Notes: generated by a model not told the origin, from the letters alone. A DNA stretch of 62,163 nucleotides from Deltaproteobacteria bacterium (GCA_019312665.1 JAFDCZ010000005.1:1-62163); one strand, 5' to 3'; shown: positions 29,418 to 57,953, counted from the first letter of the stretch. Program-made: numbers and translations.

Positions 29418-30029
29418 CTAACCGACCCGCTCGGTGATGGGCACATACCCGGGTTGGCTACGAACACGCTCCAGCCAAGCTCGCACCGCCGGATAGCTCG
29501 CCAGCTCGAAGCCACCCTCTTCTGCCACGTGGGTATACGCGTAGAGCGCGATGTCGGCGATCGAATAGCATTCTCCAACGAAGAACGGCCTCTGGCCAAG
29601 ATGGCGTTCCATCACGCCCAGGCCGGCTTCGCCACCGGAACGTTTCGCCGCGATCTCCTCTTCCGAGTGTGCTGCAAGCGTTCCGGCGTGATGCCAGAAG
29701 CGCAGGACCGCGACGAACGGCTCATGGCTGTACTGCTCGAACGCCATCCACTGAAGGACCTGGGCTCGCCCCAGACGATCCTCGGGAAGAAACCGGGTCC
29801 CCTCGGCCAGGTACCACTGGATGGCATTCGATTCGGCCAGGGTCGTGCCGTCCGGCAACTCGAGCAACGGAATGCGGCCGTTCGGGTTCTTCGCGAGGAA
29901 TTCCCGAGTGCGCGTCTCTCCCTTCAAGATGTCCAACTCAACGCGCTCGAACGGGATACCGAGCTGGGTGAGCAGCAAGCGAACCTTGTAGCCGTTTCCC
30001 GACTCCAGATAGTCGTAGAGCTGAAGCAT
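29418..30029 (-). CDS. Glutathione S-transferase
   Basis: 203 aa. N-terminal thioredoxin-like fold MLQLYDYLESGNGYKVRLLL...NPNGRIPLLELPDGTTLAESNAIQWYL. Confidence 0.9.
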   Translation of the reverse strand: MLQLYDYLESGNGYKVRLLLTQLGIPFERVELDILKGETRTREFLAKNPNGRIPLLELPDGTTLAESNAIQWYLAEGTRFLPEDRLGRAQVLQWMAFEQYSHEPFVAVLRFWHHAGTLAAHSEEEIAAKRSGGEAGLGVMERHLGQRPFFVGECYSIADIALYAYTHVAEEGGFELASYPAVRAWLERVRSQPGYVPITERVG

Positions 30030-30031
30030 CC

Positions 30032-30460
30032 CTACTCAGCAGGAGCCGCCGAAGGGGGCAGGAGCCGCAGCACCGTGGGACGCGTGGTTCGGAACCTGCT
30101 CATCAGCCGTTGCATCCAGCCGTACTTCTCCTTGAAGGCCTCCTCCACCCGGTCGTAGACCTCGGCGTCTTCCTCCTCCTCCGCCTGGACATCGAGTTCG
30201 ACCTCACCGGCGCGGATCTTCACCTCGGAACCCCGACGGATGTTGGCCAGCCAGGTCGAATCATTCGTGCGGATGTAGCCCGCCGCATCGACGACGACGA
30301 TCCAGATCGGCGTTTCTCGCGTTTCGCCGTCGTCATCCTGGGTCGTGATTTCGATCGTGTCGGTCGCATCGAACGCGGACCAGACGTCGTCCGCCCGGGC
30401 CGGGTCGGCGCCAAGCGCGACCGCCAGAACGATCAGCAGCATCGAGAAGCCTAGTTTCAC
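30032..30460 (-). CDS. Hypothetical secreted protein
   Basis: GTG at 30460 is preceded by AGGAGGA. It gives VKLGFSMLLIVLAVALGADPARA (signal peptide) followed by about 120 aa. The long track ORF upstream is Arg/Pro-rich, non-coding-looking sequence. Confidence 0.45.
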   Translation of the reverse strand: MKLGFSMLLIVLAVALGADPARADDVWSAFDATDTIEITTQDDDGETRETPIWIVVVDAAGYIRTNDSTWLANIRRGSEVKIRAGEVELDVQAEEEEDAEVYDRVEEAFKEKYGWMQRLMSRFRTTRPTVLRLLPPSAAPAE

Positions 30461-39353: not shown

Positions 39354-40433
39354 CTAACCAGCCTCTGCCAACGCCCGTGCACAATCCGCCGGGAAGCCCG
39401 GGCCGTGGTAGATCATTCCCGTGTAGACCTCGACCAGATCCGCACCGGCCCGATGCAGCGCCACCGCATCTTCCGGGCGATCGACGCCTCCGACACCGAT
39501 CAGCAGCTGATCCTCGCGTCGAAGCTCTGCGAGCATCTTCACCCCCGCTACCGCCAGCGGGCGCAAAGGAGCCCCCGAGAGGCCACCGGGAAGCTGCGGA
39601 TCCGGGCTGAGCGAACGATCCCGGGCGAGGCCGATCGACGTATTGACCGCCACGAAGCCATCACAGGCCCCCGGCGCAGAAAGCGGCTCGGCACACGCGG
39701 CGATGCTGTCCGGCGTCCAAGGCTTGCCGTCCGCATCCTCGGGCGGAAGCTTCACGAGAAGAGGCGTTCGACCTGCCCGGCCTGCTGCGGCATCCAGTGC
39801 TCCGATCTCTTCACCGAGCGGCTCGATCAGCTCGTCGCGAAAGCCTGGGCCGTAGAGGAGATCCCGTAGGCCCCGGGTGTTGGGCGAACTCAGATTGACC
39901 ACGATGAGATCCGCCTCGGCGTGGAGCCCGCGTGCCAGGCAGGCCAGCTCTTCGCGAGCACGGTCCAGGAAGTTCGGGTCCTCACCCGCCGTCTTCACCG
40001 TGCGCGGATGGGGTGCGATGTTGCACGCGATCACCAGCCCGCTCCGATCCCGCTCTCGAAACCCGCGCAAACGTTCGGCCACAGGTTCCAAGCCGTCGCT
40101 CGTGAACCCCAGACGGTTCCAGACCGCGCGTTCTCCCGGAAGCCGACTCATGCGTGGCTTCGGGTTTCCGCCCCAGGGCTCGGTCAGGATGGTGCCAACC
40201 TCGACGAACCCCACCCCCATACGGGCGATGCCCGGAAGAACTGCCGCGTTCTTGTCGAAGCCCGCTGCAATTCCCACGCGATTGCGGAACCGGACCCCCT
40301 TCCACGTGAACGGATCCTGGGGTGGGCTCCCGCCCCAGGAGACGGGCAGCCGCAGGGTCCAATGCCCAAGCTGATGGGCCAGCTCCGTAGGCAGCGGACG
40401 GATGAACGGAAAGAGCCATTCGTAGATCGGCAT
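39354..40433 (-). CDS. pyrD: Dihydroorotate dehydrogenase (quinone), class 2
   Basis: 359 aa. GFVEVGTI, NRLGFTSDG, NLSSPNTRGLRDL and GVGG motifs. Confidence 0.9.
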   Translation of the reverse strand: MPIYEWLFPFIRPLPTELAHQLGHWTLRLPVSWGGSPPQDPFTWKGVRFRNRVGIAAGFDKNAAVLPGIARMGVGFVEVGTILTEPWGGNPKPRMSRLPGERAVWNRLGFTSDGLEPVAERLRGFRERDRSGLVIACNIAPHPRTVKTAGEDPNFLDRAREELACLARGLHAEADLIVVNLSSPNTRGLRDLLYGPGFRDELIEPLGEEIGALDAAAGRAGRTPLLVKLPPEDADGKPWTPDSIAACAEPLSAPGACDGFVAVNTSIGLARDRSLSPDPQLPGGLSGAPLRPLAVAGVKMLAELRREDQLLIGVGGVDRPEDAVALHRAGADLVEVYTGMIYHGPGFPADCARALAEAG

Positions 40434-40465: not shown

Positions 40466-41698
40466 TCAGGCGTCGAACACGACGGGCAGCGCGAGAGGAG
40501 AACGAAACATCCGGCCAGTGATGTGCGGGGCCTCAGCGTCAGGATCCAGGCGCAGACCGGGCAGCTGCTCGAACAGCGTTTCGAGGAGAATCCGGGTCTC
40601 CATCCGCGCCAGATGCATCCCCAGACACGTATGCGGCCCGAACGCGAAGGACGAATGATGCAAACGGGGCCGATGGATGTCGAACCGATCAGGGTTCTCC
40701 CAGCGGGTCTCGTCCCGGTTGGCCGCACCGAGGCAGACGTGGACCGGTGTGCCGGCCGGGATCTTCACGCCACAGATCTCGGCATCTCGAGCCGCCGTCC
40801 GCTGAATGCCCGTCAGGGGGCACTCCCATCGAAGGCCCTCCTCGATCGCGGCGGGAATCAGGCCTGGATCGCTCCGGACAGCCTCCCATTGTTCCGGGTC
40901 CGAGAGCAGCCCCAGGAGCAGATTGCTCGACGAACGATAGGTGGTCTCTGCACCCGCCGGCGCAAGCAGCCGCAGGAAGGCGTAGATCTGCTCATCGTCG
41001 AGCCGGGTCCCGTCGAGTTCCGCCATGGCGAGCTCGCTCATCAGATCGTCGCGTGGGGCCCGCCGGCGCTCGGCGAGGACTCCGGAGAAGAGTTCACGCA
41101 AGCCTGCCGAAGCCGCCATTCCGAGCGCCGGATCGAAGGCAATCATGATCAATTCGAGGGCGAGGCGATGGAACGTCGCATGCGTCTCCTCGGGCAGGCC
41201 GATCATTCCGCAGATGACGCGGACCGGGAACGGGAAGGTCAGATCACGCACCAGATCGCCTCGGCCCTTGGAGCGGATCTCCGCAACACAGCCCTCGATG
41301 AGTGGACGCACGAGCTCGTTTTCCCAGCGATCGAGCTGACGGCGATTGAACGCGGATTGGATCAACCCCCGGTACTTGAAGTGCTCGGGCTCATCCATCT
41401 CCAGGATCGAGTGGCCCATCACGAGGCCCATCGTGTTGGCGTACGCCGAAGACGAAAAAGTCTCCCCGTCGCGCAGCACTTCGACGACCGCATCGAACGA
41501 CAGAGGGACCGCGATCTGGTCAGGACTCCCCGGCATCAGCATGCCCGACTCGAAGAACTCGGTAGGTGGGACCAGCCAGACCGGTGTCTCACGGCGTTTC
41601 TTCGCCCATTCGGGATACGGATCGGGCGCCGCGTTGGCACCTTGCAGACGATTGAATCGATCGAAGGCATCGTTCGGCGTGAGATCGGGAGCGGCCAT
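40466..41698 (-). CDS. Cytochrome P450
   Basis: 410 aa. Heme loop FAFGPHTCLGMHLA, and AGAETT in the I-helix. Confidence 0.9.
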   Translation of the reverse strand: MAAPDLTPNDAFDRFNRLQGANAAPDPYPEWAKKRRETPVWLVPPTEFFESGMLMPGSPDQIAVPLSFDAVVEVLRDGETFSSSAYANTMGLVMGHSILEMDEPEHFKYRGLIQSAFNRRQLDRWENELVRPLIEGCVAEIRSKGRGDLVRDLTFPFPVRVICGMIGLPEETHATFHRLALELIMIAFDPALGMAASAGLRELFSGVLAERRRAPRDDLMSELAMAELDGTRLDDEQIYAFLRLLAPAGAETTYRSSSNLLLGLLSDPEQWEAVRSDPGLIPAAIEEGLRWECPLTGIQRTAARDAEICGVKIPAGTPVHVCLGAANRDETRWENPDRFDIHRPRLHHSSFAFGPHTCLGMHLARMETRILLETLFEQLPGLRLDPDAEAPHITGRMFRSPLALPVVFDA

Positions 41699-41714
41699 CG
41701 GGGACCTCGTGGGT

Positions 41715-42350
41715 TCAGCTGGCGTCCTCGCCTAGAAGCCGACGCGTGATGCGAAGCAGCTCCTGACGATGGGCTTCCAGGTGTTCCGGTGAAGAAGGAT
41801 TGAACTCGAGATCGGGAACCAGGGCCGGCATCGCGCCCAGGAAGAAGAGCGTGGCGCCAGCGATCGCGCTTGCGAGATGCGCGGCGTCGATCCCGGAGGC
41901 GCTAGAGCTGGCCGCTCCCGCTTGATCGACCATCGACTCGGCAAGGGCGCGAAACGGCTTCGTATGCGCGACCACCCCCGGCGCCGAACCCGGTTCCGCC
42001 TCGACGGCGTCGCGCAGCAGCAGGCGCGCGAGGTTCGGGCGCCCGCCGAGGTACGCGACCCAGACGGACACGGCGGCCTCGATCCGCTCTCCAAGCGATC
42101 CCTCGGCAACCAGCGCCTCACGCAGCTGATCCAACAGGCCACCCAGGGCATCTCCGAGCACCGCGTCGTAGAGCTCGGCCTTTCCGCGGAAGTAGTAGAC
42201 GATCGATGCCCGCCGGATTCCGACCGCAGCCGCCACATCCTCGAGACGAGTGCCGCGAAACCCACGCTCGGCGAACAAGCGCTCGGCAGAAGCCAGAATG
42301 GCGGCGCGGGTGCGCTCGGCCTTGGGGGTCAGCTCGATGGCGGCAGACAT
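41715..42350 (-). CDS. TetR family transcriptional regulator
   Basis: 211 aa. N-terminal HTH region RAAILASAERLFAERGFRGTRLEDVAAAVGIRRASIVYYF. Confidence 0.9.
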   Translation of the reverse strand: MSAAIELTPKAERTRAAILASAERLFAERGFRGTRLEDVAAAVGIRRASIVYYFRGKAELYDAVLGDALGGLLDQLREALVAEGSLGERIEAAVSVWVAYLGGRPNLARLLLRDAVEAEPGSAPGVVAHTKPFRALAESMVDQAGAASSSASGIDAAHLASAIAGATLFFLGAMPALVPDLEFNPSSPEHLEAHRQELLRITRRLLGEDAS

Positions 42351-42362
42351 GAGATATTTCTA

Positions 42363-42374
42363 CCTGCGCGCAGG
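42363..42374. promoter_or_regulatory. 12-bp perfect palindrome CCTGCGCGCAGG just upstream of the TetR start (candidate operator)
   Basis: Read directly from the sequence. Extends imperfectly to TACCTGCGCGCAGGCA. Confidence 0.3.
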
Positions 42375-42476
42375 CAGAATATCAAGAGACGTTTCCAGGA
42401 GATCGAAGCCGTCGGAAGAACCGCCTCGATACGTCTGAGCCCGCTCAGAGCTCCTCCAGGGCGCCCAAATGCAGCG

Positions 42477-43691
42477 TCAAAGCAGCTCGAGCCCTGGGAA
42501 CGCCGTCCGCTCCGGCTCGAGGCAGTGGCTGAGAAACACCGCCAGCCCCCCATCGCCGCTCCACAACGTGAATCGGCCCTGGCCGTAGCGGGCGCGGGCG
42601 CGCCGCCGCTGCCGAACCCCATGCATCGCGAAGACGCGCGCCCGATCGAGCCAGCGAGCCTCCCCCGTGCGCTGGGCCAGGCCGAGGAAGGCGTACCCGT
42701 TGCCTGCAGTGCCATGGCAAAGGCCCGGGCCTTTGCGAAGCGGGCCAGCCTTCCACACGAACTCGCCCGCACGGAGGAGCAAGCAGTCCAACTCTTGCAT
42801 CGGCGGAGCCTTGGCGAGGGCCGTCACGACGCCCGGTGCACCATGACACCATTGGACGAGGCGCCGCGTTCCCAAGGCGTCCTCGCTCACCGGCCAGTTC
42901 AGGCCTTCTCCCTCCTCGAGCGCACCGCCGAGCAGTGTTCGCGCAACCCGCCGAACGATCGTCTCCGCATCGAGCTCGGGCAAGAACTCCAACGCGCGCA
43001 GCAACGCGCCGCCGTTGCCCGCCACGCCATGGCAGGCTCCGTAGTACGAACGTTGGAATCCGAACACGTGGCTGGTCCAATGCCAGTGGCCGTTCGCTCG
43101 CTCTTCCCAGCTTTGAACCAACGAGCGGGCGAGTCGCTCGGACTGGCGCTGCCATCGTGGGTCGGCCGTGGCGCGGAACAAGGTCAGCGCAGCGTGGAGC
43201 GCACCGGTTTCGCCGGAGGTGATCTCTCGCGCCGGGTGCCCCAGGATTCCCTCCATCGCGCGTTCCAACCGATCGCCGAGTGGCCGGTCCGACGGATCGG
43301 CGAGCACCGCAGGCGCGAGGATTCCGATCTCCCCCATCTGAAGGCCGGTCTCGAGTTCGCGATCCGGCTCCTTCCGATAGGCGTCTGCAATCTCCACCAA
43401 CGAAGACGAGAGATCCGGTGCGTCGTAGCCAGCCGCCCGCAGGATACGAAGACTGCTGACCGCGCCCGCCGCTCCAAAGTACGAGGTCCAATGCCGCTCG
43501 TTGCCCGGCAGCTCACCGCCGTCGAGGAGATGGGTCGGCCAGCTGCCGTCCGCACGTCGGGAGGTCACGAAATCTGCCACGATCTCGTCGATCGCGGTCC
43601 TCGCAAGCGCCGCATCCCAGGGCCCACCCGCAAGGGGTTGGTGCCGCTCCGGGTCGAATACACCTTCCGGGTCGGGGACGTCTTCGCTCAC
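42477..43691 (-). CDS. LanC-like (lanthionine synthetase C-like) protein, stand-alone
   Basis: GTG at 43691 overlaps the thiolase stop (GTGA). The three zinc-ligand/GxxG motifs of LanC are present: YYGACHGVAGNG, QWCHGAPGVV and GLCHGTAGNGYAFL. Confidence 0.8.
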   Translation of the reverse strand: MSEDVPDPEGVFDPERHQPLAGGPWDAALARTAIDEIVADFVTSRRADGSWPTHLLDGGELPGNERHWTSYFGAAGAVSSLRILRAAGYDAPDLSSSLVEIADAYRKEPDRELETGLQMGEIGILAPAVLADPSDRPLGDRLERAMEGILGHPAREITSGETGALHAALTLFRATADPRWQRQSERLARSLVQSWEERANGHWHWTSHVFGFQRSYYGACHGVAGNGGALLRALEFLPELDAETIVRRVARTLLGGALEEGEGLNWPVSEDALGTRRLVQWCHGAPGVVTALAKAPPMQELDCLLLRAGEFVWKAGPLRKGPGLCHGTAGNGYAFLGLAQRTGEARWLDRARVFAMHGVRQRRRARARYGQGRFTLWSGDGGLAVFLSHCLEPERTAFPGLELL

Positions 43692-44881
43692 GTGGCCGTG
43701 AGCAGCAGACAACCTGCCAACGGCCCGCCACCGGCGGCGGCGACGGCCACCTGCGGGTCGCCCGGCACCTGTCGCTCGCCGGCTTCGTTCCATAGCTGCA
43801 CGCAGGCTTCATGCAGGAAGCCGTAGCCGTGCAGGCGGCCAGCGGAGAGCTGCCCACCGTGGGTGTTCAGCGGTAGCTCTCCGGCAAGTCCGATGCGTTC
43901 TCCCCCTTCGATGAAAGAGCCGCCCTCCCCCCTCCCGCAGAAGCCCAACGCCTCGAGCCAGGCCAGCGTGATGAAGCTGAAACCATCGTAGAGCTCCGCC
44001 ACATCGACATCGGCCGGCGTGAGCTGCGTGTCTTCCCAGAGTGCGCGACCCGCATCCCGCAACGCCATCGTCGTGAGATCGTCGAATTGATCCCAGGAGG
44101 GACGGCCCTTTAGGGCGGTTCCGACCGACTCGACGAAGAGCGGTGTGCGACGAAGATCTCCGCCGAGCTCCGCCCGCGAAACGATGAAGGCGGTCGCACC
44201 ATCGACGGGCACATCACAATCGTACAGGCAGAGTGGCGTCGAGATCATGCGCACCGCGAGGTAGTCCTCCAGCGTCATCGGCTCCCGATAGATCGCCTTT
44301 GGATTCAGCGCCGCGTTGCGTCTGGCATTCAAGGCGATCCAGGCCAGCTGTTCCCGGGTCGTACCGAACTCATGGAAATGGCGTTGGGCATAGAGGGCAA
44401 TCCAGTTGGCGGCCGAGTACGCGCGGAACGGAATCGTGTACTCCATCATCCCGGTCATGCGCGCGCCGCCACCCCCTGCTCCGCCGCCCACGCCGAGCCC
44501 CTGGCGCCGGCCCTTGCCTTGCGCCGTGGCCTCCCACACCGACCGGAAGCAGAGCACGTGGTTCGCCATGCCGCAGGCCACCGCCATGCAAGCCTCGACC
44601 ACCGAACCCAGCTGACCCGGGTGCTCCGGCCCGCCGTTGAACCAGCGTAGGGGCAGGCGCAACGCGTCGTGGACATCGCTGATGCCGGCGCCGGAGAAAC
44701 CGGCCGGACCCATCGCGCCTGGATAGGTCGAGAGCCCGTCGATCTGCTCGCGGGTCAGCCCGGCATCCTCGATGGCTGCCAGACATGCATCCAGGGTGAG
44801 ATCCAGCGGATCGCGCATCAGGCGCCGTCCCACCTCGGACTGGCCGATGCCGGTGATCGCAGCCTTGCGACGAAGACTCAT
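43688..44881 (-). CDS. Thiolase-like protein, SCP-x / lipid-transfer (Ltp) type
   Basis: ATG at 44881 (ATGA overlap with the DUF35 gene) gives MSLRRKAAITGIGQSEVGRR.... The C-terminal NTHGGQLSAGRLHGYGFLHEA is typical of DUF35-partnered thiolases. Confidence 0.85.
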   Translation of the reverse strand: MSLRRKAAITGIGQSEVGRRLMRDPLDLTLDACLAAIEDAGLTREQIDGLSTYPGAMGPAGFSGAGISDVHDALRLPLRWFNGGPEHPGQLGSVVEACMAVACGMANHVLCFRSVWEATAQGKGRRQGLGVGGGAGGGGARMTGMMEYTIPFRAYSAANWIALYAQRHFHEFGTTREQLAWIALNARRNAALNPKAIYREPMTLEDYLAVRMISTPLCLYDCDVPVDGATAFIVSRAELGGDLRRTPLFVESVGTALKGRPSWDQFDDLTTMALRDAGRALWEDTQLTPADVDVAELYDGFSFITLAWLEALGFCGRGEGGSFIEGGERIGLAGELPLNTHGGQLSAGRLHGYGFLHEACVQLWNEAGERQVPGDPQVAVAAAGGGPLAGCLLLTAT

Positions 44882-45312
44882 CTGCCGACGCCCCTGCGCA
44901 GCTTCGGATCGGCGGGTTCGAACAAGGGAAACCACACATCCTCGTGTTGCTCGAACACGACCTGGACGGCCATTCCGATCGCGACGTCTTCGCCGGCCAC
45001 GTGCACCAGGTTCGTCATCAGCCGCAAACCCTCTTGCTCTTCGATCTCGACGATCGCGATCGGATAGGGGTGGTCCGGGCTCGGAACCCAGGGCTGGTGG
45101 TTGAAGGTGTAGGTCAACACGCTGGCGCGCCCCGAGACGGCCTCGACCGAGAGCTCTTTCGAAAGGCAGGCCGGGCAGCGCGGGGAGGTCGGATGAATCC
45201 AGGTACCGCACGGCGTACAGCGCAGGAACTGGAGCCGGCCATGCTCGCCACCACGCCAGAAGTGCGAGTTGGCATCGGTGACCCTGGGCAACACACGAAA
45301 CGGTTGCTCCAC
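44878..45312 (-). CDS. DUF35 Zn-ribbon/OB-fold protein (thiolase partner)
   Basis: 144 aa. FWRGGEHGRLQFLRCTPCGTWIHPTSPRCPACLS is the rubredoxin-like CxxC...CxxC, followed by an OB fold (VLTYTF...IAIVEIEE). Confidence 0.85.
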   Translation of the reverse strand: MEQPFRVLPRVTDANSHFWRGGEHGRLQFLRCTPCGTWIHPTSPRCPACLSKELSVEAVSGRASVLTYTFNHQPWVPSPDHPYPIAIVEIEEQEGLRLMTNLVHVAGEDVAIGMAVQVVFEQHEDVWFPLFEPADPKLRRGVGR

Positions 45313-45315
45313 CGG

Positions 45316-46011
45316 CTAGTGGCCCAGGCTCTTGACGATCACCTCGGAGAGTGGCGTCGAGTGCATCGCTTCCATGTCCCCGTAGAGAGGCAGTTCCTCC
45401 ACCGTGCGCTTCAAGGCTTCCGGCGATCCGTAGAGGCGAGCAGGATCCGTGTAGTCGAGAACGTCACGGAAGCGCTCGGCCACGATGGCCCGGATCGGCG
45501 GCGAACCGGGCGTCAGTACCCGCGCAACCGCGTTGCGAACGTATTCCCAGCGCAGTGGATGCAGCGCCGCCGAGGCCGGCGTATGGATGACGTGCCAGCC
45601 GTGGTAGAACGCTTCGTCCGAGAGCCGCTCCGGCTTCGGAAACCAGGTGAAATGGGTCACCCCGGGGCTCAGCGTGCCATCCGCCCAATCGCGATCGAGA
45701 CACGGCTGCGGCACGGATTCGGTGACGAGATACCCATCCAGGCGGATCGCCTGCTCGCGAAGGGCTTCCTCGACCGGGCCGCGATCGTCCAGGGAGCGCA
45801 TCCACACCGCCACGGCAGCGGAAAGCGTGGCGCCCTCTCCCATCAGCAGGGTCGGCTTGGGAATCGCCTGCTGGGTATCGGCCACGCTGACGTTCAGTGC
45901 GCACGCACCCGCCGCGAGGATCCGCGGAGAGACTTCCTCGAGTAGATGCTTGCGGTAGGCGTCGATCGTCAGCCCATCGCGCTTCCAGCTGAGGTAGATC
46001 AGCTTCTCCAA
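45316..46011 (-). CDS. Hypothetical protein, possibly a tandem EthD-like domain protein
   Basis: 231-aa ORF at the head of the DUF35/thiolase/LanC-like gene string. The EthD-like assignment is a guess based on its beta-alpha-beta-like repeats. Confidence 0.4.
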   Translation of the reverse strand: MEKLIYLSWKRDGLTIDAYRKHLLEEVSPRILAAGACALNVSVADTQQAIPKPTLLMGEGATLSAAVAVWMRSLDDRGPVEEALREQAIRLDGYLVTESVPQPCLDRDWADGTLSPGVTHFTWFPKPERLSDEAFYHGWHVIHTPASAALHPLRWEYVRNAVARVLTPGSPPIRAIVAERFRDVLDYTDPARLYGSPEALKRTVEELPLYGDMEAMHSTPLSEVIVKSLGH

Positions 46012-46083
46012 CGGTTGGTCCCCTTCGATCGCCCCGGATGCGATGCGAGGCCATTCTATGGGAGACGTCCAATCGTTGCCGCG

Positions 46084-47265
46084 GTGAATTCACGCCTTGT
46101 CGATCCGGCCCCGGGGGCCCACCTTCCGGTCGTGCCCATCCTGCTCCTCGCCAGCCTGCTCCTGCTCGTGCCCGCGGGAGGAGGCGCCGAGGCCCTGGTG
46201 CCCCTCCCCCCCCAACCCGCGAAGATCGCCTGGCCAAGCGTTGCATGGCCGGAAACGGAACTCGCGCCGAACGTCGATTCGGACGCCCTGGCTGCGGCGG
46301 TCGAGACGATTTTCGAGACCCAGCCGGTCGGGGGCCTTCCGGACACCCGTGCCGTGTTGATCGTCCAGGGCGGCGAGATCGTGTTCGAGCGTTACGCGAA
46401 AGGTTTCGGCCCGGAGTCCCGCTTCCATTCCTGGTCGATGGCCAAGAGCTTCGTGCAATGCCTCGTCGCGCTGCTGGTCCGCGAAGGCCGACTCGAGGTC
46501 GACGCTCCGGCTCCCGTGCCGACCTGGAGCGAAGCAGATGATCCACGCCACCGCCTCAGCCTCCGCCACCTGCTCAACATGACCACAGGGCTCGACAATG
46601 CAGACGGCGGATCCGACCCGCAGGCCTTCGTCGGCCAACTCTTGTTCGGCCCGAACGCGCAAGACATGGCCGGCCATGCCGCCAACGTCCGCTTCCTGCA
46701 TGACCCCGGGACCCATTGGACCTACTCGACGGGTACCAGTGCGATCCTCGGCGGAATCGTCTCGCGCATTACCGGCCCCAGCCGGGAAGCCACCCGAGCT
46801 TGGATGGAAAAAGAACTGCTCGACCCTCTCGGCATCAAGAGCCTCGTTGCTGAATCCGACAGCCGCGACCAACTGGTCGGTGGCAGCCACGTCTGGGCAA
46901 CGGCGCGAGATTGGGCGCGTCTCGGGCTGCTCTACCTGCGCGGCGGCGAGTGGGACGGCCAGCGCATCTTGCCTGCAGGTTGGGTCGACTTCACGCGCAC
47001 CCGTGCGCCGGCCGACAACAACGGAACCTACGGCGCCCACTTCTGGCTGAATCTTCCAGCCCGCGAGAAGCAGTTCGATCCTCTACCGGGCGGGCCCGCC
47101 AGCGCGTTTCAGATGAGCGGCAACGGTGGCCAGTACGTCGCCATGGTTCCGGAACGTGACCTGATGGTCCTGCGCCTCGGCGAGATGATGGCGACCGATT
47201 GGCCCAGCATGGGCCGCCAGATGGCCGCGTTGATCGCCGCCTTCCCCACTCCGGCCGCGCCGTGA
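46084..47265 (+). CDS. Serine hydrolase, beta-lactamase/transpeptidase-like family, secreted
   Basis: GTG at 46084 gives a signal-like N-terminus ([22 protein letters not shown]). Carries the SWSMAKS SxxK motif. Collinear similarity to 38302..39342 is visible in the translations. Confidence 0.8.
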
Positions 47266-56556: not shown

Positions 56557-56943
56557 ATGCAGGATCGACCGACCTCCGCCGAACTCCTCGAGACCCTTGC
56601 CGATCTCCTGGAAGAGCAGCTGTTGCCTGCGACCCAGGGGCCCCTGCGTCACCAGGTGCGGGTGGCCGGAAACCTGTGTCGGATCCTCGAACGGGAGGCC
56701 CGCCTCGGCGGCCCTCAAGATGATCGGGAGGCAGAACTCTTGCGCGACGTTCTGGGCCCTGTCGCGGAAGGCTCGGATACGTTGGAGCTCAACCGCAGAC
56801 TCGCAGAGGCGTTGAAACGAGGACAGGACCCCGCGCTCGAGCGAAAAGCCTGGCAAGCCCTCATCGAAATCGTGCGCGGCAAACTCTCGATCGCGAAGCC
56901 TGGCCACGACGCGTACGATTTCCAGGGCGAGCTGCCCGAGTGA
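56557..56943 (+). CDS. Small helical protein, partner of the phosphotransferase (DUF6285-like)
   Basis: 128 aa. PTSAELLETLADLLEEQLLP...LRHQVRVAGNLCRILERE. Its stop overlaps the next gene's GTG start. Confidence 0.5.
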   Translation: MQDRPTSAELLETLADLLEEQLLPATQGPLRHQVRVAGNLCRILEREARLGGPQDDREAELLRDVLGPVAEGSDTLELNRRLAEALKRGQDPALERKAWQALIEIVRGKLSIAKPGHDAYDFQGELPE

Positions 56944-57953
56944 GCCCCGCGCCCGATTTGAAGAACGGCCTGGAGCGGGCGCTCGGCGAGCTCTGGCAGA
57001 CACCCGTCGAGGTCTCAGAACTCGGCGTGGCGACGACCGGAGCCCGTCGCCGCAATATCCTGTTCGACGCGACTCGCAAGAACGAGACGCTCCCGCTGGT
57101 TGCAACGATCATCCCGAACCCGGCAATGCAGGTGATGGCAATGACGGTCGAAGCGGCGAGCCTGCGCCTGGCCTTCGACCAGGGCATGCCCGTGCCCGAA
57201 CTCCACGGGGTATGGGAAGATCCGGCGTACGTTGGCGGCCCGTTCTTCATTACCTCCCGCATCGAGGGCGAGACGATCCCGCGCCAGATCCTTCGCCTGG
57301 TGGAAGCCGAGCCCTCGCTCGGCCCGCGCATCGCCCGGCAATGCGGCGAAGCCTTGGCGAAGCTGCATGCGGCCGACCCGGCTCGGGCCCATCCGGACGT
57401 GATCCGTCCCGGCCCCGGCGTGAGTCCGATCGACCAGGGCATCACGACCCTCGAGGCGTTGGCCCGGGATCTCCTCCAACCGTCGCCTAGCTTTGCCCTC
57501 GGTTTGCAGTGGCTGGCACGCCATGCGCCAGCCCCACCCGACGGGCTCACCCTCGTCCACGGCGACTTTCGCAACGGCAACCTGATCGTCGGCTCGGACG
57601 GCCTGCGTGCAACGCTGGATTGGGAGCTCACCCACCTCGGAGATCCGATGCGTGACCCGGCCTGGCTTTGCCAGCGCATGTGGCGCTTCCGGAACGACCA
57701 CCTGGAGGTTGGCGGCTTCGGTTCACGGAAGGAGCTGCGGGCAGGCTACGAGGCGGCCGGCGGCACCTGGCGGGAAGATGCCTTTCATTGGTGGAAGGTC
57801 CACGGAACCCTGAGCTGGGGCCTCGGCCTGGCCGGCCAGGCCCGGGCACATATCGATGGCGTGGTCCCGTCGATCGTGATGGCCGCCAGCGGGCGACGCG
57901 TGGCCGAGCTCGAGTACGACCTGCTGCGCATGATTCAACGGGACTACGCCTGA
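56940..57953 (+). CDS. Aminoglycoside/choline kinase-like phosphotransferase (APH family)
   Basis: 337 aa. Catalytic loop LVHGDFRNGNLIV and DWELTHLGDPMRD. Confidence 0.8.
   Translation: MSPAPDLKNGLERALGELWQTPVEVSELGVATTGARRRNILFDATRKNETLPLVATIIPNPAMQVMAMTVEAASLRLAFDQGMPVPELHGVWEDPAYVGGPFFITSRIEGETIPRQILRLVEAEPSLGPRIARQCGEALAKLHAADPARAHPDVIRPGPGVSPIDQGITTLEALARDLLQPSPSFALGLQWLARHAPAPPDGLTLVHGDFRNGNLIVGSDGLRATLDWELTHLGDPMRDPAWLCQRMWRFRNDHLEVGGFGSRKELRAGYEAAGGTWREDAFHWWKVHGTLSWGLGLAGQARAHIDGVVPSIVMAASGRRVAELEYDLLRMIQRDYA

What the first reader, a model, noticed from the sequence alone, without database searches (positions are those of the whole stretch)
42477..46011. Stand-alone LanC-like cyclase translationally coupled to a DUF35/SCP-x-thiolase pair
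Four minus-strand genes are tightly stacked: an EthD-like hypothetical (stop 45316), DUF35 (start 45312), the thiolase (ATGA overlap at 44878-44881) and the LanC-like gene (GTGA overlap at 43688-43691). The LanC-like protein keeps all three zinc/active-site motifs (CHG, WCHG, CHG). No LanB/LanM/LanKC dehydratase, precursor peptide, protease or transporter is nearby, so a lanthipeptide role is unlikely. DUF35-thiolase pairs act on acyl-CoA or ketoacyl substrates (steroid side chains, benzylsuccinate-type pathways). Eukaryotic LanCL proteins add glutathione to electrophilic enes. A zinc-dependent thiol-ene addition enzyme wired into a C-C thiolytic or aldol-type CoA pathway is, to my knowledge, not described. 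A TetR-P450 pair lies immediately downstream.
Basis: partly seen in the sequence, partly recalled or inferred. Interest (0 to 1): 0.62.

Follow-up and report, generated by a model that had tools for sequence, protein, structure and literature searches.

The report
Orphan LanC-like gene beside aldolase-like pair
The four stacked genes are real, but the LanC-like gene is a widespread stand-alone bacterial relative of animal LanCL enzymes that sits behind a DUF35/thiolase-like pair only in one small group of marine myxobacteria, so a shared pathway is possible but not supported.

Summary
Observation confirmed. On the minus strand lie a 231-aa tandem EthD/ABM-fold protein, a DUF35 protein, an SCP2-thiolase-like protein and a 404-aa LanC-like protein. 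The last two junctions are 4-nt overlaps. No lanthipeptide machinery occurs anywhere in the 62-kb window.

The proposed functional wiring is poorly supported.
- Of 80 genomic loci carrying relatives of the LanC-like protein, only one has the thiolase next door. It is a 72%-identical Myxococcota relative.
- Of 80 loci carrying relatives of the thiolase-like protein, all 80 keep DUF35 directly upstream and none has a LanC-like gene.
- Four genomes hold both genes on different contigs.
- Two sister lineages have the same operon without LanCL.
- A 59% orthologue overlaps by 4 nt with a sulfatase gene instead.
- A tree places the linked genes in one small clade nested among unlinked Myxococcota orthologues.

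The LanC-like protein is closest to eukaryotic LanCL1/2. It keeps the zinc ligands, the acid His and the LanCL-type His after the first zinc Cys. The "thiolase" lacks the nucleophilic Cys. Its active site is YDGF plus Arg, related to the Ltp2/Sal retro-aldolases but matching neither.

Most likely this is a lineage-specific juxtaposition in a rearrangement-prone slot upstream of pyrD. Interest is low to moderate.

The parts
45316..46011 (-). 231-aa protein of unknown function with a tandem ferredoxin-like (EthD/ABM/DABB) fold; first gene of the operon, TTG start
   Evidence: a conserved family of 637 hits; some homologues carry a precomputed PF07110 EthD hit. AlphaFold pLDDT 87. Foldseek matches putative monooxygenase 3f44, anthrone-oxidase-like 5f9p, PenE and chalcone isomerase (TM 0.5-0.63). 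No Pfam or NCBIfam hit for the window protein itself.
44878..45312 (-). DUF35 protein: rubredoxin-like C4 zinc ribbon plus OB fold; partner subunit of the thiolase-like protein
   Evidence: PF12172 30.9 bits and PF01796 64.8 bits. The sequence shows C-x2-C-x10-C-x2-C. A DUF35 gene lies directly upstream of the thiolase-like gene in 80 of 80 related loci.
43688..44881 (-). SCP2-thiolase-like protein without the thiolase nucleophile (YDGF / Arg349 active-site type); Ltp2/Sal-like candidate C-C lyase acting on a CoA thioester
   Evidence: Thiolase_C_1; the best solved relative is 6OK1, the Ltp2-ChsH2(DUF35) aldolase (E 5e-55). Pro85 aligns with the nucleophilic Cys of a true thiolase (7yvy); across 81 family members there is no Cys at that column, and Y298, D299, G300, F301, R349 and H351 are invariant. 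The ATGA overlap with DUF35 is read directly from the sequence.
42477..43691 (-). Stand-alone bacterial LanCL-type protein (zinc thiol-ene transferase fold); last gene of the operon, GTG start overlapping the thiolase stop
   Evidence: LanCL2, GCR2 and LanCL1 at E 1e-30 to 1e-36, against 2e-5 for the best lanthipeptide synthetase; model pLDDT 87, TM 0.65-0.69 to LanCL1/2/GCR2. H221, C282, H283, K320, C325 and H326 are invariant.
42358..42379 (.). Palindrome TTCTACCTGCG/CGCAGGCAGAA just upstream of the TetR start; likely TetR operator marking the start of a separate TetR-P450 unit
   Evidence: It is conserved upstream of the TetR gene in L121, L129, L208, L088 and L139, whatever gene lies upstream.
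41715..42350 (-). TetR-family regulator
   Evidence: PF00440. Paired with the P450 in relatives.
40466..41698 (-). Cytochrome P450
39354..40433 (-). Quinone-dependent dihydroorotate dehydrogenase (pyrD); conserved downstream anchor of the variable slot
   Evidence: It is the anchor in L001, L082, L087, L088, L124, L129 and L208.
46084..47265 (+). Divergently transcribed beta-lactamase-family serine hydrolase; conserved upstream anchor
Evidence: PF00144, on the longer ORF 45946-47265. Divergent neighbour of unk231 in L081, L082, L083, L123 and L124.

Best explanation
The stack joins three modules that are distributed independently in other genomes. It lies in a rearrangement-prone slot between a serine-hydrolase gene and pyrD in a small clade of uncultured marine Myxococcota.

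Module 1 is a tandem EthD/ABM-fold protein. In other Myxococcota it sits directly in front of the TetR-P450 unit.

Module 2 is an obligate pair: a DUF35 protein and an SCP2-thiolase-like protein that has lost the thiolase nucleophile. By analogy with Ltp2 and Sal, it most likely performs a retro-aldol-type C-C cleavage on a 3-hydroxyacyl-CoA-like substrate. This is inferred. Its acid residue differs from both characterised enzymes.

Module 3 is a bacterial orthologue group of eukaryotic LanCL enzymes. Elsewhere it is an orphan gene with no conserved neighbours. It most likely works on its own as a zinc-dependent enzyme that adds a small thiol to electrophilic C=C bonds such as dehydroamino acids. 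The thiol is probably glutathione, since the window also encodes a GST. This too is inferred from homology.

In this clade the LanCL gene landed behind the thiolase-like gene and was compacted into the operon with a 4-nt overlap. It is probably co-transcribed there. Comparative evidence does not indicate that it takes part in the DUF35/thiolase-like reaction.
For: - Gene models and domains.
- LanCL loci: of 80, only L002 (72% identity) has the thiolase neighbour. No neighbour family is conserved across them, and none is shared even among the Myxococcota loci.
- Thiolase loci: of 80, DUF35 is adjacent in 80, LanCL in 0 and unk231 in 1.
- Four assemblies hold both genes on different contigs: NYZB01, JAJDAR01, CAXMOC01 and JBFIYM01.
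- Sister lineages lack LanCL in the same slot. ARS66 and Tara contigs carry unk231-DUF35-thiolase-[FGGY/2-Hacid_dh/SCP2 fusion]-PyrD. OFTM245 carries DUF35-thiolase-TetR-P450...PyrD.
- More distant Myxococcota carry unk231-TetR-P450-fusion-PyrD.
- The TetR operator palindrome is conserved whatever gene lies upstream.
- The tree puts the linked LanCLs in one 100/100 clade of four rows, nested among unlinked Myxococcota orthologues.
- Linked LanCLs differ from 12 unlinked orthologues at only 6 of 135 conserved columns, none of them catalytic.
- An orthologue overlaps by 4 nt with a sulfatase gene. Others lie next to GFA and to MAPEG plus MOSC genes.
- In the 88% relative an IS630-family transposase tail abuts an intact LanCL gene.
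- LanCL-type features: and PMC9934072.
- Thiolase-like active site: and PMC12329534.
Against: - The 4-nt overlap between the thiolase-like and LanCL genes is kept in the 72% relative, where the start position is computed from the length of the matching database protein. The arrangement has therefore persisted for some time and the genes are probably co-expressed.
- Successive accretion of co-directional genes at one site can reflect selection for co-regulation.
- No transcript, protein or activity data exist for any of these proteins.
- The window's whole genome could not be searched because the genome tools were shut. A second LanCL copy or distant partner genes are therefore not excluded.
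- Two of the glutathione-binding residues of LanCL1 (Asp367, Glu374) are not conserved, so the thiol substrate is uncertain.
Confidence: 0.65

Rival explanations
1. Functional recruitment. In this clade the LanCL enzyme was recruited into the operon and acts in the same pathway as the DUF35/thiolase-like enzyme. It might add glutathione or another thiol to an alpha,beta-unsaturated CoA ester, enal or enone formed or used by the Ltp2-like enzyme. The EthD-fold protein and possibly the P450 would act on the same hydrophobic substrate.
For: - Four-nt overlaps join DUF35 to thiolase and thiolase to LanCL in the window. Both overlaps are kept in the 72% relative; the LanCL start there is computed from protein length.
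- The genes are co-directional, and no terminator-like site was found inside the stack.
- The operon has no MaoC hydratase, unlike the Acidimicrobiia relatives. This leaves room for a different ene-activating step.
- The LanCL catalytic residues are intact.
Against: - The adjacency occurs in one clade only.
- The genes are unlinked in four genomes that have both.
- Sister lineages keep the operon without LanCL.
- The linked LanCLs show no change in sequence signature.
- In the 88% relative an IS element separates LanCL from the thiolase, yet LanCL stays intact.
- LanCL orthologues overlap unrelated genes elsewhere.
- The taxonomic ranges of the two families overlap only partly. LanCL is frequent in Gamma- and Betaproteobacteria. 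The thiolase-like family is frequent in Acidimicrobiia.
Confidence: 0.15
2. Cryptic RiPP or lanthipeptide cyclase. The LanC-like protein cyclises a dehydrated peptide made by genes outside the window, or by an unrecognised dehydratase.
For: The LanC fold and zinc site are shared with lanthipeptide cyclases. Walker et al. 2020 report about 1,400 unclassified LanC-like proteins, some of them in possible new RiPP clusters. The window has an APH-family phosphotransferase at 56724-57950; such kinases occur in class V lanthipeptide pathways (from my own knowledge).
Against: - No LanB, LanM or Pkinase-type dehydratase occurs in 62 kb.
- The only intergenic gaps of the operon are 126 and 72 nt, so there is no room for a precursor gene.
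- The family has no conserved neighbours in 80 loci.
- The profile matches eukaryotic LanCLs at 1e-30 or better but lanthipeptide synthetases only at 2e-5, and NisC not at all.
- The residue after the first zinc Cys is His as in LanCL, not Tyr as in class I cyclases.
- The APH gene is 13 kb away on the other strand, next to unrelated genes.
Confidence: 0.03
3. The LanCL-like protein is not an enzyme here. It would be a binding or regulatory protein, as was once proposed for LanCL2 and GCR2, and the operon position would be irrelevant.
For: No activity has been shown for any bacterial member. Two glutathione-contacting acidic residues of LanCL1 are replaced.
Against: The zinc ligands, acid His, enolate-stabilising His, the Lys317 equivalent and an Arg near the Arg364 position are invariant across Myxococcota, Gamma- and Alphaproteobacteria at 45-60% overall identity. 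This is the pattern expected of a conserved catalytic site.
Confidence: 0.07

Closest known systems
Eukaryotic LanCL1/LanCL2 (glutathione S-transferase LANCL1; PDB 3E6U, 8CZK, 6WQ1) and Arabidopsis GCR2 (3T33)
   Same: It has the same alpha/alpha-toroid fold (Foldseek TM 0.65-0.69) and these are its best sequence matches (E 1e-30 to 1e-36 with the family profile). It keeps the zinc ligands Cys/Cys-His, the acid His (LanCL1 His219 = H221) and the enolate-stabilising His after the first zinc Cys (His277 = H283). That last residue is diagnostic of LanCLs against class I LanCs, which have Tyr (PMC9934072). The Lys317 equivalent (K320) and an Arg near Arg364 are also conserved. Like LanCLs it is a stand-alone protein with no lanthipeptide genes.
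   Different: It is bacterial and only 23-24% identical to these proteins. Asp367 and Glu374, which hold the glutamyl amine of glutathione, are replaced by Gln and Ser/Thr. The N-terminal region, which holds Arg4 in LanCL1, is not alignable. No activity is known. In this clade it is embedded in an operon.
Class I lanthipeptide cyclases (NisC 2G0D/2G02, MadC 8BYK) and the cyclase domains of LanM/LanL/LanKC
   Same: LANC_like Pfam family, the zinc site and the acid His. The NCBIfam LanL model is the best partial hit.
   Different: There is no dehydratase, precursor, protease or transporter nearby. The match is much weaker (Foldseek E 5e-6 for NisC against 5e-14 for GCR2; the sequence profile gives no NisC hit). 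It has His rather than Tyr after the zinc Cys.
Steroid side-chain retro-aldolases Ltp2-ChsH2(DUF35) (Thermomonospora curvata, 6OK1) and Sal-Shy(DUF35) (Comamonas testosteroni, 9MYR)
   Same: An SCP2-thiolase fold lacking the nucleophilic Cys, an obligatory DUF35 partner and the conserved Tyr base of the YDxF motif (Y298). These are among the best solved relatives (6OK1 first at E 5e-55, 9MYR third at 5e-35). Acidimicrobiia members of the family have a MaoC hydratase upstream, as in ChsH1-ChsH2-Ltp2.
   Different: The motif is YDGF, not YDHF (Ltp2) or YDCY (Sal). The general-acid position (Ltp2 Tyr344, Sal Gln352) is an invariant Arg. DUF35 is a separate small protein rather than the C-terminal domain of a hydratase. 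The window operon has no hydratase. The substrate is unknown and there are no steroid-catabolic genes nearby.
[quoted passage not shown]
   Same: A two-gene DUF35 plus SCP2-type thiolase-fold architecture with a C4 zinc ribbon.
   Different: Those thiolase subunits keep the catalytic Cys. The window protein and all 80 relatives examined do not.

Membership tests
LanC-like superfamily, LanCL (eukaryote-type) branch | LANC_like domain and alpha/alpha-toroid fold | tested here: met
   PF05147 at 110 bits against a cut-off of 23.2. The AlphaFold model (pLDDT 87) matches LanCL1, LanCL2 and GCR2 with TM 0.65-0.69.
LanC-like superfamily, LanCL (eukaryote-type) branch | Zinc ligands Cys, Cys, His and the catalytic acid His at the equivalent motif positions | tested here: met
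   C282 (WCHG), C325-H326 (LCHG) and H221 (GACHG) align column for column with the LanCL1/LanCL2 motifs. They are invariant in 15 members.
LanC-like superfamily, LanCL (eukaryote-type) branch | His after the first zinc Cys (LanCL1 His277) rather than Tyr (class I LanC) or Lys/Asn (LanM) | tested here: met
   H283 is invariant. The criterion comes from PMC9934072.
LanC-like superfamily, LanCL (eukaryote-type) branch | Glutathione-binding residues (LanCL1 Arg4, Lys317, Arg364, Asp367, Glu374) | tested here: inconclusive
   K320 corresponds to Lys317 and is invariant. R366 or R368 lies at or near Arg364. Asp367 and Glu374 align with Gln371 and Ser/Thr378. Arg4 lies in an unaligned region.
LanC-like superfamily, LanCL (eukaryote-type) branch | Zinc-dependent addition of glutathione to dehydroamino acids | not testable with these tools
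   Needs purified protein.
Lanthipeptide biosynthetic cyclase (LanC of a class I-V cluster) | Neighbouring dehydratase (LanB, LanM, or kinase/lyase) and precursor peptide | tested here: not met
   Pfam scans of the window's genes found none. The operon's intergenic gaps are only 126 and 72 nt. No conserved neighbour appears in 80 family loci. No dedicated small-ORF search was run.
SCP2-type thiolase (true thiolase) | Nucleophilic Cys in the N-terminal half and an HDCF motif | tested here: not met
   Pro85 aligns with the Cys of 7yvy. That column is I/L/P/M/V in 81 members. The motif is YDGF.
Ltp2/Sal-type DUF35-dependent retro-aldolase | DUF35 partner and the catalytic Tyr of the YDxF motif | tested here: met
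   DUF35 is adjacent in 80 of 80 loci. Y298 is invariant and aligns with TcLtp2 Tyr294.
Ltp2/Sal-type DUF35-dependent retro-aldolase | General acid: Tyr344 (Ltp2) or the Cys of YDCY (Sal) | tested here: not met
   The aligned residues are an invariant Arg349 and Gly300. The criteria come from PMC12329534. The protein is therefore not filed as Ltp2 or Sal. It is only 'works perhaps like'.
DUF35 (ChsH2 C-terminal type) | Rubredoxin-like zinc ribbon plus OB fold | tested here: met
   PF12172 and PF01796 are both above their cut-offs. The C-x2-C-x10-C-x2-C pattern is in the sequence.
EthD / ABM dimeric alpha+beta barrel superfamily | Ferredoxin-like beta-alpha-beta halves forming a barrel; family HMM match | tested here: inconclusive
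   The model shows two ferredoxin-like halves and matches ABM-type and anthrone-oxidase-like proteins at E 1e-6 and TM 0.53-0.63. The window protein has no Pfam hit. A few homologues carry a precomputed PF07110 hit.

The most novel reading that the evidence does not exclude
In one clade of marine Myxococcota, a LanCL-type zinc thiol-ene transferase has been recruited into a CoA-ester catabolic operon. There it performs a thia-Michael addition on an enoyl-CoA or enone intermediate, taking the place of the missing MaoC hydratase. This would be the first small-molecule, pathway-embedded role for a LanC-fold enzyme.
Probability: 0.1. Interest if true: 0.65.

Novelty: new member of a known kind. 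Interest (0 to 1): 0.3.

Why it matters
If the pathway link were real, it would extend LanC-fold chemistry from peptides to CoA-ester metabolism. The comparative evidence argues against that reading.

Two modest leads remain.
1. Bacteria hold a large, strongly conserved and uncharacterised orthologue group of the animal LanCL glutathione transferases. It has the LanCL-type active site and no lanthipeptide genes. It could serve as a simple model for LanCL function. Some members lie next to glutathione-related genes (GFA, MAPEG).
2. The DUF35-partnered 'thiolase' here represents a very conserved third active-site type (YDGF plus Arg) beside the characterised Ltp2 and Sal retro-aldolases. Its substrate is unknown.

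Tried and rejected
I could not look in the window's own genome for a second LanCL copy, glutathione synthesis genes, a MaoC hydratase or distant lanthipeptide genes.
- All-against-all clustering of six-frame ORFs around 80 LanCL loci returned mostly out-of-frame shadows of LanCL itself and large multi-domain signalling proteins (GGDEF/EAL, MCP). I take those to be chance matches between abundant families, not conserved neighbours.
- A targeted search for shared neighbours among nine LanCL loci, six of them Myxococcota, found nothing.
- The 40-aa ORF tail upstream of LanCL in the 88% relative had no NCBIfam hit. tblastn against plasmids then identified it as an IS630-family transposase C-terminus.
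- Literature searches for bacterial LanCL function and for LanC-like together with DUF35 found nothing relevant. One apparent hit was only the author name 'Lanclos'.
- PADLOC gave no defence-system hit for any of the four proteins.
- The promoter/terminator scan found nothing in 41600-46300. It is uninformative in a 66% G+C genome.
- Earlier-findings look-up by sequence returned nothing.

Full report
**1. What is there**

On the minus strand, seven genes follow one another:
- 45316-46011: a 231-aa protein with no Pfam or NCBIfam hit, TTG start.
- 44878-45312: a DUF35 protein (PF12172 zinc ribbon and PF01796 OB fold).
- 43688-44881: a protein with a Thiolase_C_1 domain.
- 42477-43691: a 404-aa LANC_like protein (110 bits).
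- 41715-42350: a TetR regulator.
- 40466-41698: a cytochrome P450.
- 39354-40433: pyrD.

The DUF35/thiolase junction is an ATGA overlap. The thiolase/LanC-like junction is a GTGA overlap. The first two genes are 3 nt apart. The LanC-like start is supported by an identical 404-aa database protein and by the N-termini of homologues.

Pfam scans of essentially all likely genes in the window found housekeeping and catabolic genes. Examples are uvrB, cysS, secDF, metK, rpoN, lptAC, a MoxR/VWA set, a GST, a sulfatase, MATE, a sigma-54 activator, a ThDP enzyme and a CoA-transferase. There was no LanB, LanM or protein-kinase-type lanthipeptide dehydratase.

**2. The LanC-like protein is a bacterial LanCL, normally an orphan gene**

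It belongs to a large family of proteins about 401 aa long. Members are 45-60% identical across Myxococcota, Gamma-, Beta- and Alphaproteobacteria; 2,987 proteins matched at E<=1e-10 among the 8,000 candidates scored.

Fifteen diverse members share 90 invariant columns. These include H221 (GACHG), C282-H283 (WCHG), K320 and C325-H326 (LCHG).

A profile of the family hits LanCL2, Arabidopsis GCR2 and LanCL1 at E 5e-36 to 2e-30. The best lanthipeptide synthetase reaches only 2e-5, and NisC is not hit at all. The AlphaFold model (pLDDT 87) gives the same order. GCR2, LanCL2 and LanCL1 score E 5e-14 to 7e-12 with TM 0.65-0.69. MadC scores 9e-9 and NisC 5e-6.

Ongpipattanakul et al. (PMC9934072) show that the residue after the first zinc Cys stabilises the enolate. 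It is His in eukaryotic LanCLs, Tyr in stand-alone bacterial LanCs, and Lys, Asn or His in LanMs. This family has His.

The glutathione contacts of LanCL1 are only partly kept. The Lys317 equivalent is conserved and an Arg lies near the Arg364 position. Asp367 and Glu374 align with Gln and Ser/Thr. The thiol substrate is therefore plausible but not established as glutathione. The window does encode a GST.

Walker et al. (PMC7268733) already counted about 3,000 LanC-like proteins in RefSeq that fall outside recognisable lanthipeptide clusters. Orphan bacterial LanC-like genes are thus known to exist, though they are uncharacterised.

**3. The synteny test**

(a) Eighty genomic loci with LanCL relatives (39-81% identity, up to 10 kb of flank) were searched by tblastn with all neighbours from the window. 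Only L002 has unk231, DUF35 and the thiolase upstream. L002 is a closed Myxococcota chromosome with 72% LanCL identity. Clustering all flanking ORFs gave no conserved neighbour family. Nine LanCL loci, six of them Myxococcota, share nothing either.

(b) Eighty loci with relatives of the thiolase-like protein (66-85% identity) were searched the same way. All 80 have a DUF35 gene directly upstream, none has LanCL, and one has unk231.

(c) Four assemblies appear in both lists with the two genes on different contigs: NYZB01, JAJDAR01, CAXMOC01 and JBFIYM01.

(d) Sister lineages keep the operon without LanCL.
- ARS66 and several Tara Oceans contigs carry unk231-DUF35-thiolase, then a 1,048-aa FGGY-kinase/2-hydroxyacid-dehydrogenase/SCP2 fusion, then pyrD.
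- OFTM245 carries DUF35-thiolase-TetR-P450...pyrD.
- More distant Myxococcota carry unk231-TetR-P450-fusion-pyrD.
- A palindrome 8 nt upstream of the TetR start (42358-42379) is conserved in five relatives, whichever gene lies upstream. TetR-P450 is therefore a self-contained unit.
- The DUF35-thiolase pair, and later LanCL, were inserted between unk231 and that operator.

(e) In the 88% relative, the LanCL gene is intact. The tail of an IS630-family transposase gene ends about 50 nt upstream of its start, and only about 35 nt of the thiolase 3' end remain.

(f) A maximum-likelihood tree puts the window, the 88% relative, the 81% relative (upstream unknown because the contig ends) and the 72% relative in one clade with 100/100 support. 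That clade is nested among unlinked Myxococcota orthologues. This indicates a single, recent origin of the linkage.

(g) The linked LanCLs differ from 12 unlinked orthologues at only 6 of 135 strongly conserved columns, and none is in a catalytic motif.

(h) As a control for the overlap argument, a 59% orthologue overlaps by 4 nt with an upstream sulfatase gene. Other close orthologues lie beside GFA, MAPEG and MOSC genes. That is an anecdotal hint of a glutathione or detoxification theme.

In the 72% relative, the thiolase-LanCL junction is again a 4-nt overlap. There the LanCL start is computed from the length of the matching database protein. A convergent GGDEF-EAL gene follows LanCL.

**4. 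The 'thiolase' is not a thiolase**

Its best solved relative is the steroid side-chain aldolase Ltp2 in complex with ChsH2-DUF35 (6OK1, E 5e-55). A structural-genomics thiolase-fold protein (4U4E) comes next, then the bile-acid aldolase Sal (9MYR).

Aligned with a true thiolase (7yvy), the nucleophilic Cys corresponds to Pro85. Across 81 family members that column is I, L, P, M or V and never Cys.

The SCP2-thiolase HDCF motif reads YDGF here and is invariant. Ltp2 has YDHF and Sal has YDCY. The Ltp2 general acid Tyr344, which is Gln352 in Sal, is an invariant Arg349 here (criteria from PMC12329534).

The family therefore shares the Tyr base and the DUF35 partnership of the retro-aldolases. 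Its acid or oxyanion arrangement is a third, uncharacterised type.

In Acidimicrobiia relatives, a MaoC hydratase and a second DUF35 lie upstream (32 of 80 loci). SDR, acyl-CoA synthetase and enoyl-CoA hydratase genes are also nearby. This fits a CoA-ester catabolic role. The window operon has no hydratase.

**5. The first gene**

The family is conserved (637 hits; 58-94% identity among the members aligned) and mostly unannotated. A few members carry an EthD Pfam hit. The model (pLDDT 87) has two ferredoxin-like halves. It matches cofactor-independent monooxygenase-like, anthrone-oxidase-like, PenE and chalcone-isomerase structures at TM 0.5-0.63. 'EthD-like' is fair at the fold level. It is adjacent to DUF35-thiolase only in the same narrow clade: 3 of 40 loci, or 1 of the 80 thiolase loci.

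**6. Conclusion**

The stack is real and is probably one transcription unit in this clade. It is assembled from modules that are distributed independently elsewhere. The LanCL module is the most recent arrival and the most dispensable.

The most likely reading (about 0.65) is a stand-alone LanCL-type thiol-ene transferase that happens to be co-transcribed with a DUF35/Ltp2-like C-C lyase.

A true pathway recruitment within this clade cannot be excluded (about 0.10-0.15). A lanthipeptide role is very unlikely. All enzymatic functions named here are inferred from homology and none was tested.

The association of LanC-like with DUF35 is not mentioned in the searched literature. Given its narrow distribution, that absence reflects rarity rather than an overlooked system.

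Noticed in passing
window 43688-44881; loci L128-L207: The DUF35-partnered thiolase-like protein belongs to a very conserved family (66-85% identity across Myxococcota, Acidimicrobiia and others). The family has no nucleophilic Cys, an invariant YDGF motif, and an invariant Arg where Ltp2 has its acid Tyr344. This active-site type is distinct from both characterised aldolases, Ltp2 and Sal.
   Followed up: partly
window 42358-42379: The palindrome TTCTACCTGCG/CGCAGGCAGAA lies 8 nt upstream of the TetR start codon. It is conserved upstream of the TetR gene in five relatives (L121, L129, L208, L088, L139) whatever gene lies upstream. It is a likely TetR operator.
   Followed up: partly
L124 12546-15692; L208 8609-11287; L082 10546-13692: Relatives carry a 900-1,050-aa fusion protein with FGGY carbohydrate-kinase, D-2-hydroxyacid dehydrogenase and sometimes SCP2 domains. 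It sits between the thiolase or P450 gene and pyrD. It is absent from the window.
   Followed up: no
L121 1-175; L122 1-176: In the genome whose LanCL is 88% identical, the C-terminal 40 codons of an IS630-family transposase end about 50 nt upstream of the LanCL start. Only about 35 nt of the thiolase 3' end remain, and both contigs end there.
   Followed up: yes
L210 4519-4929; L213 1756-3079; L214 2-1693: LanCL orthologues of 58-59% identity lie beside a GFA gene (glutathione-dependent formaldehyde-activating enzyme family) and beside MAPEG (membrane glutathione transferase family) plus MOSC genes. In one lineage the orthologue overlaps by 4 nt with a sulfatase gene.
   Followed up: partly
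window 29421-30035 (-): A canonical glutathione S-transferase gene (GST_N plus GST_C). It suggests that the organism uses glutathione.
   Followed up: no
L042 9129-10070: The LanCL homologue of MAG ARS66 matches in two overlapping pieces, apparently in different frames. This points to a frameshift: either a pseudogene or an assembly error.
   Followed up: no
window 45316-46011; L208, L088: The tandem EthD/ABM-fold protein sits directly upstream of the TetR-P450 unit in more distant Myxococcota. This hints at a link with the P450 rather than with the thiolase-like pair.
   Followed up: partly
L081 11692-14175 (-): In the 72% relative, a convergent 7TM-GGDEF-EAL signalling gene lies between LanCL and TetR.
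   Followed up: yes
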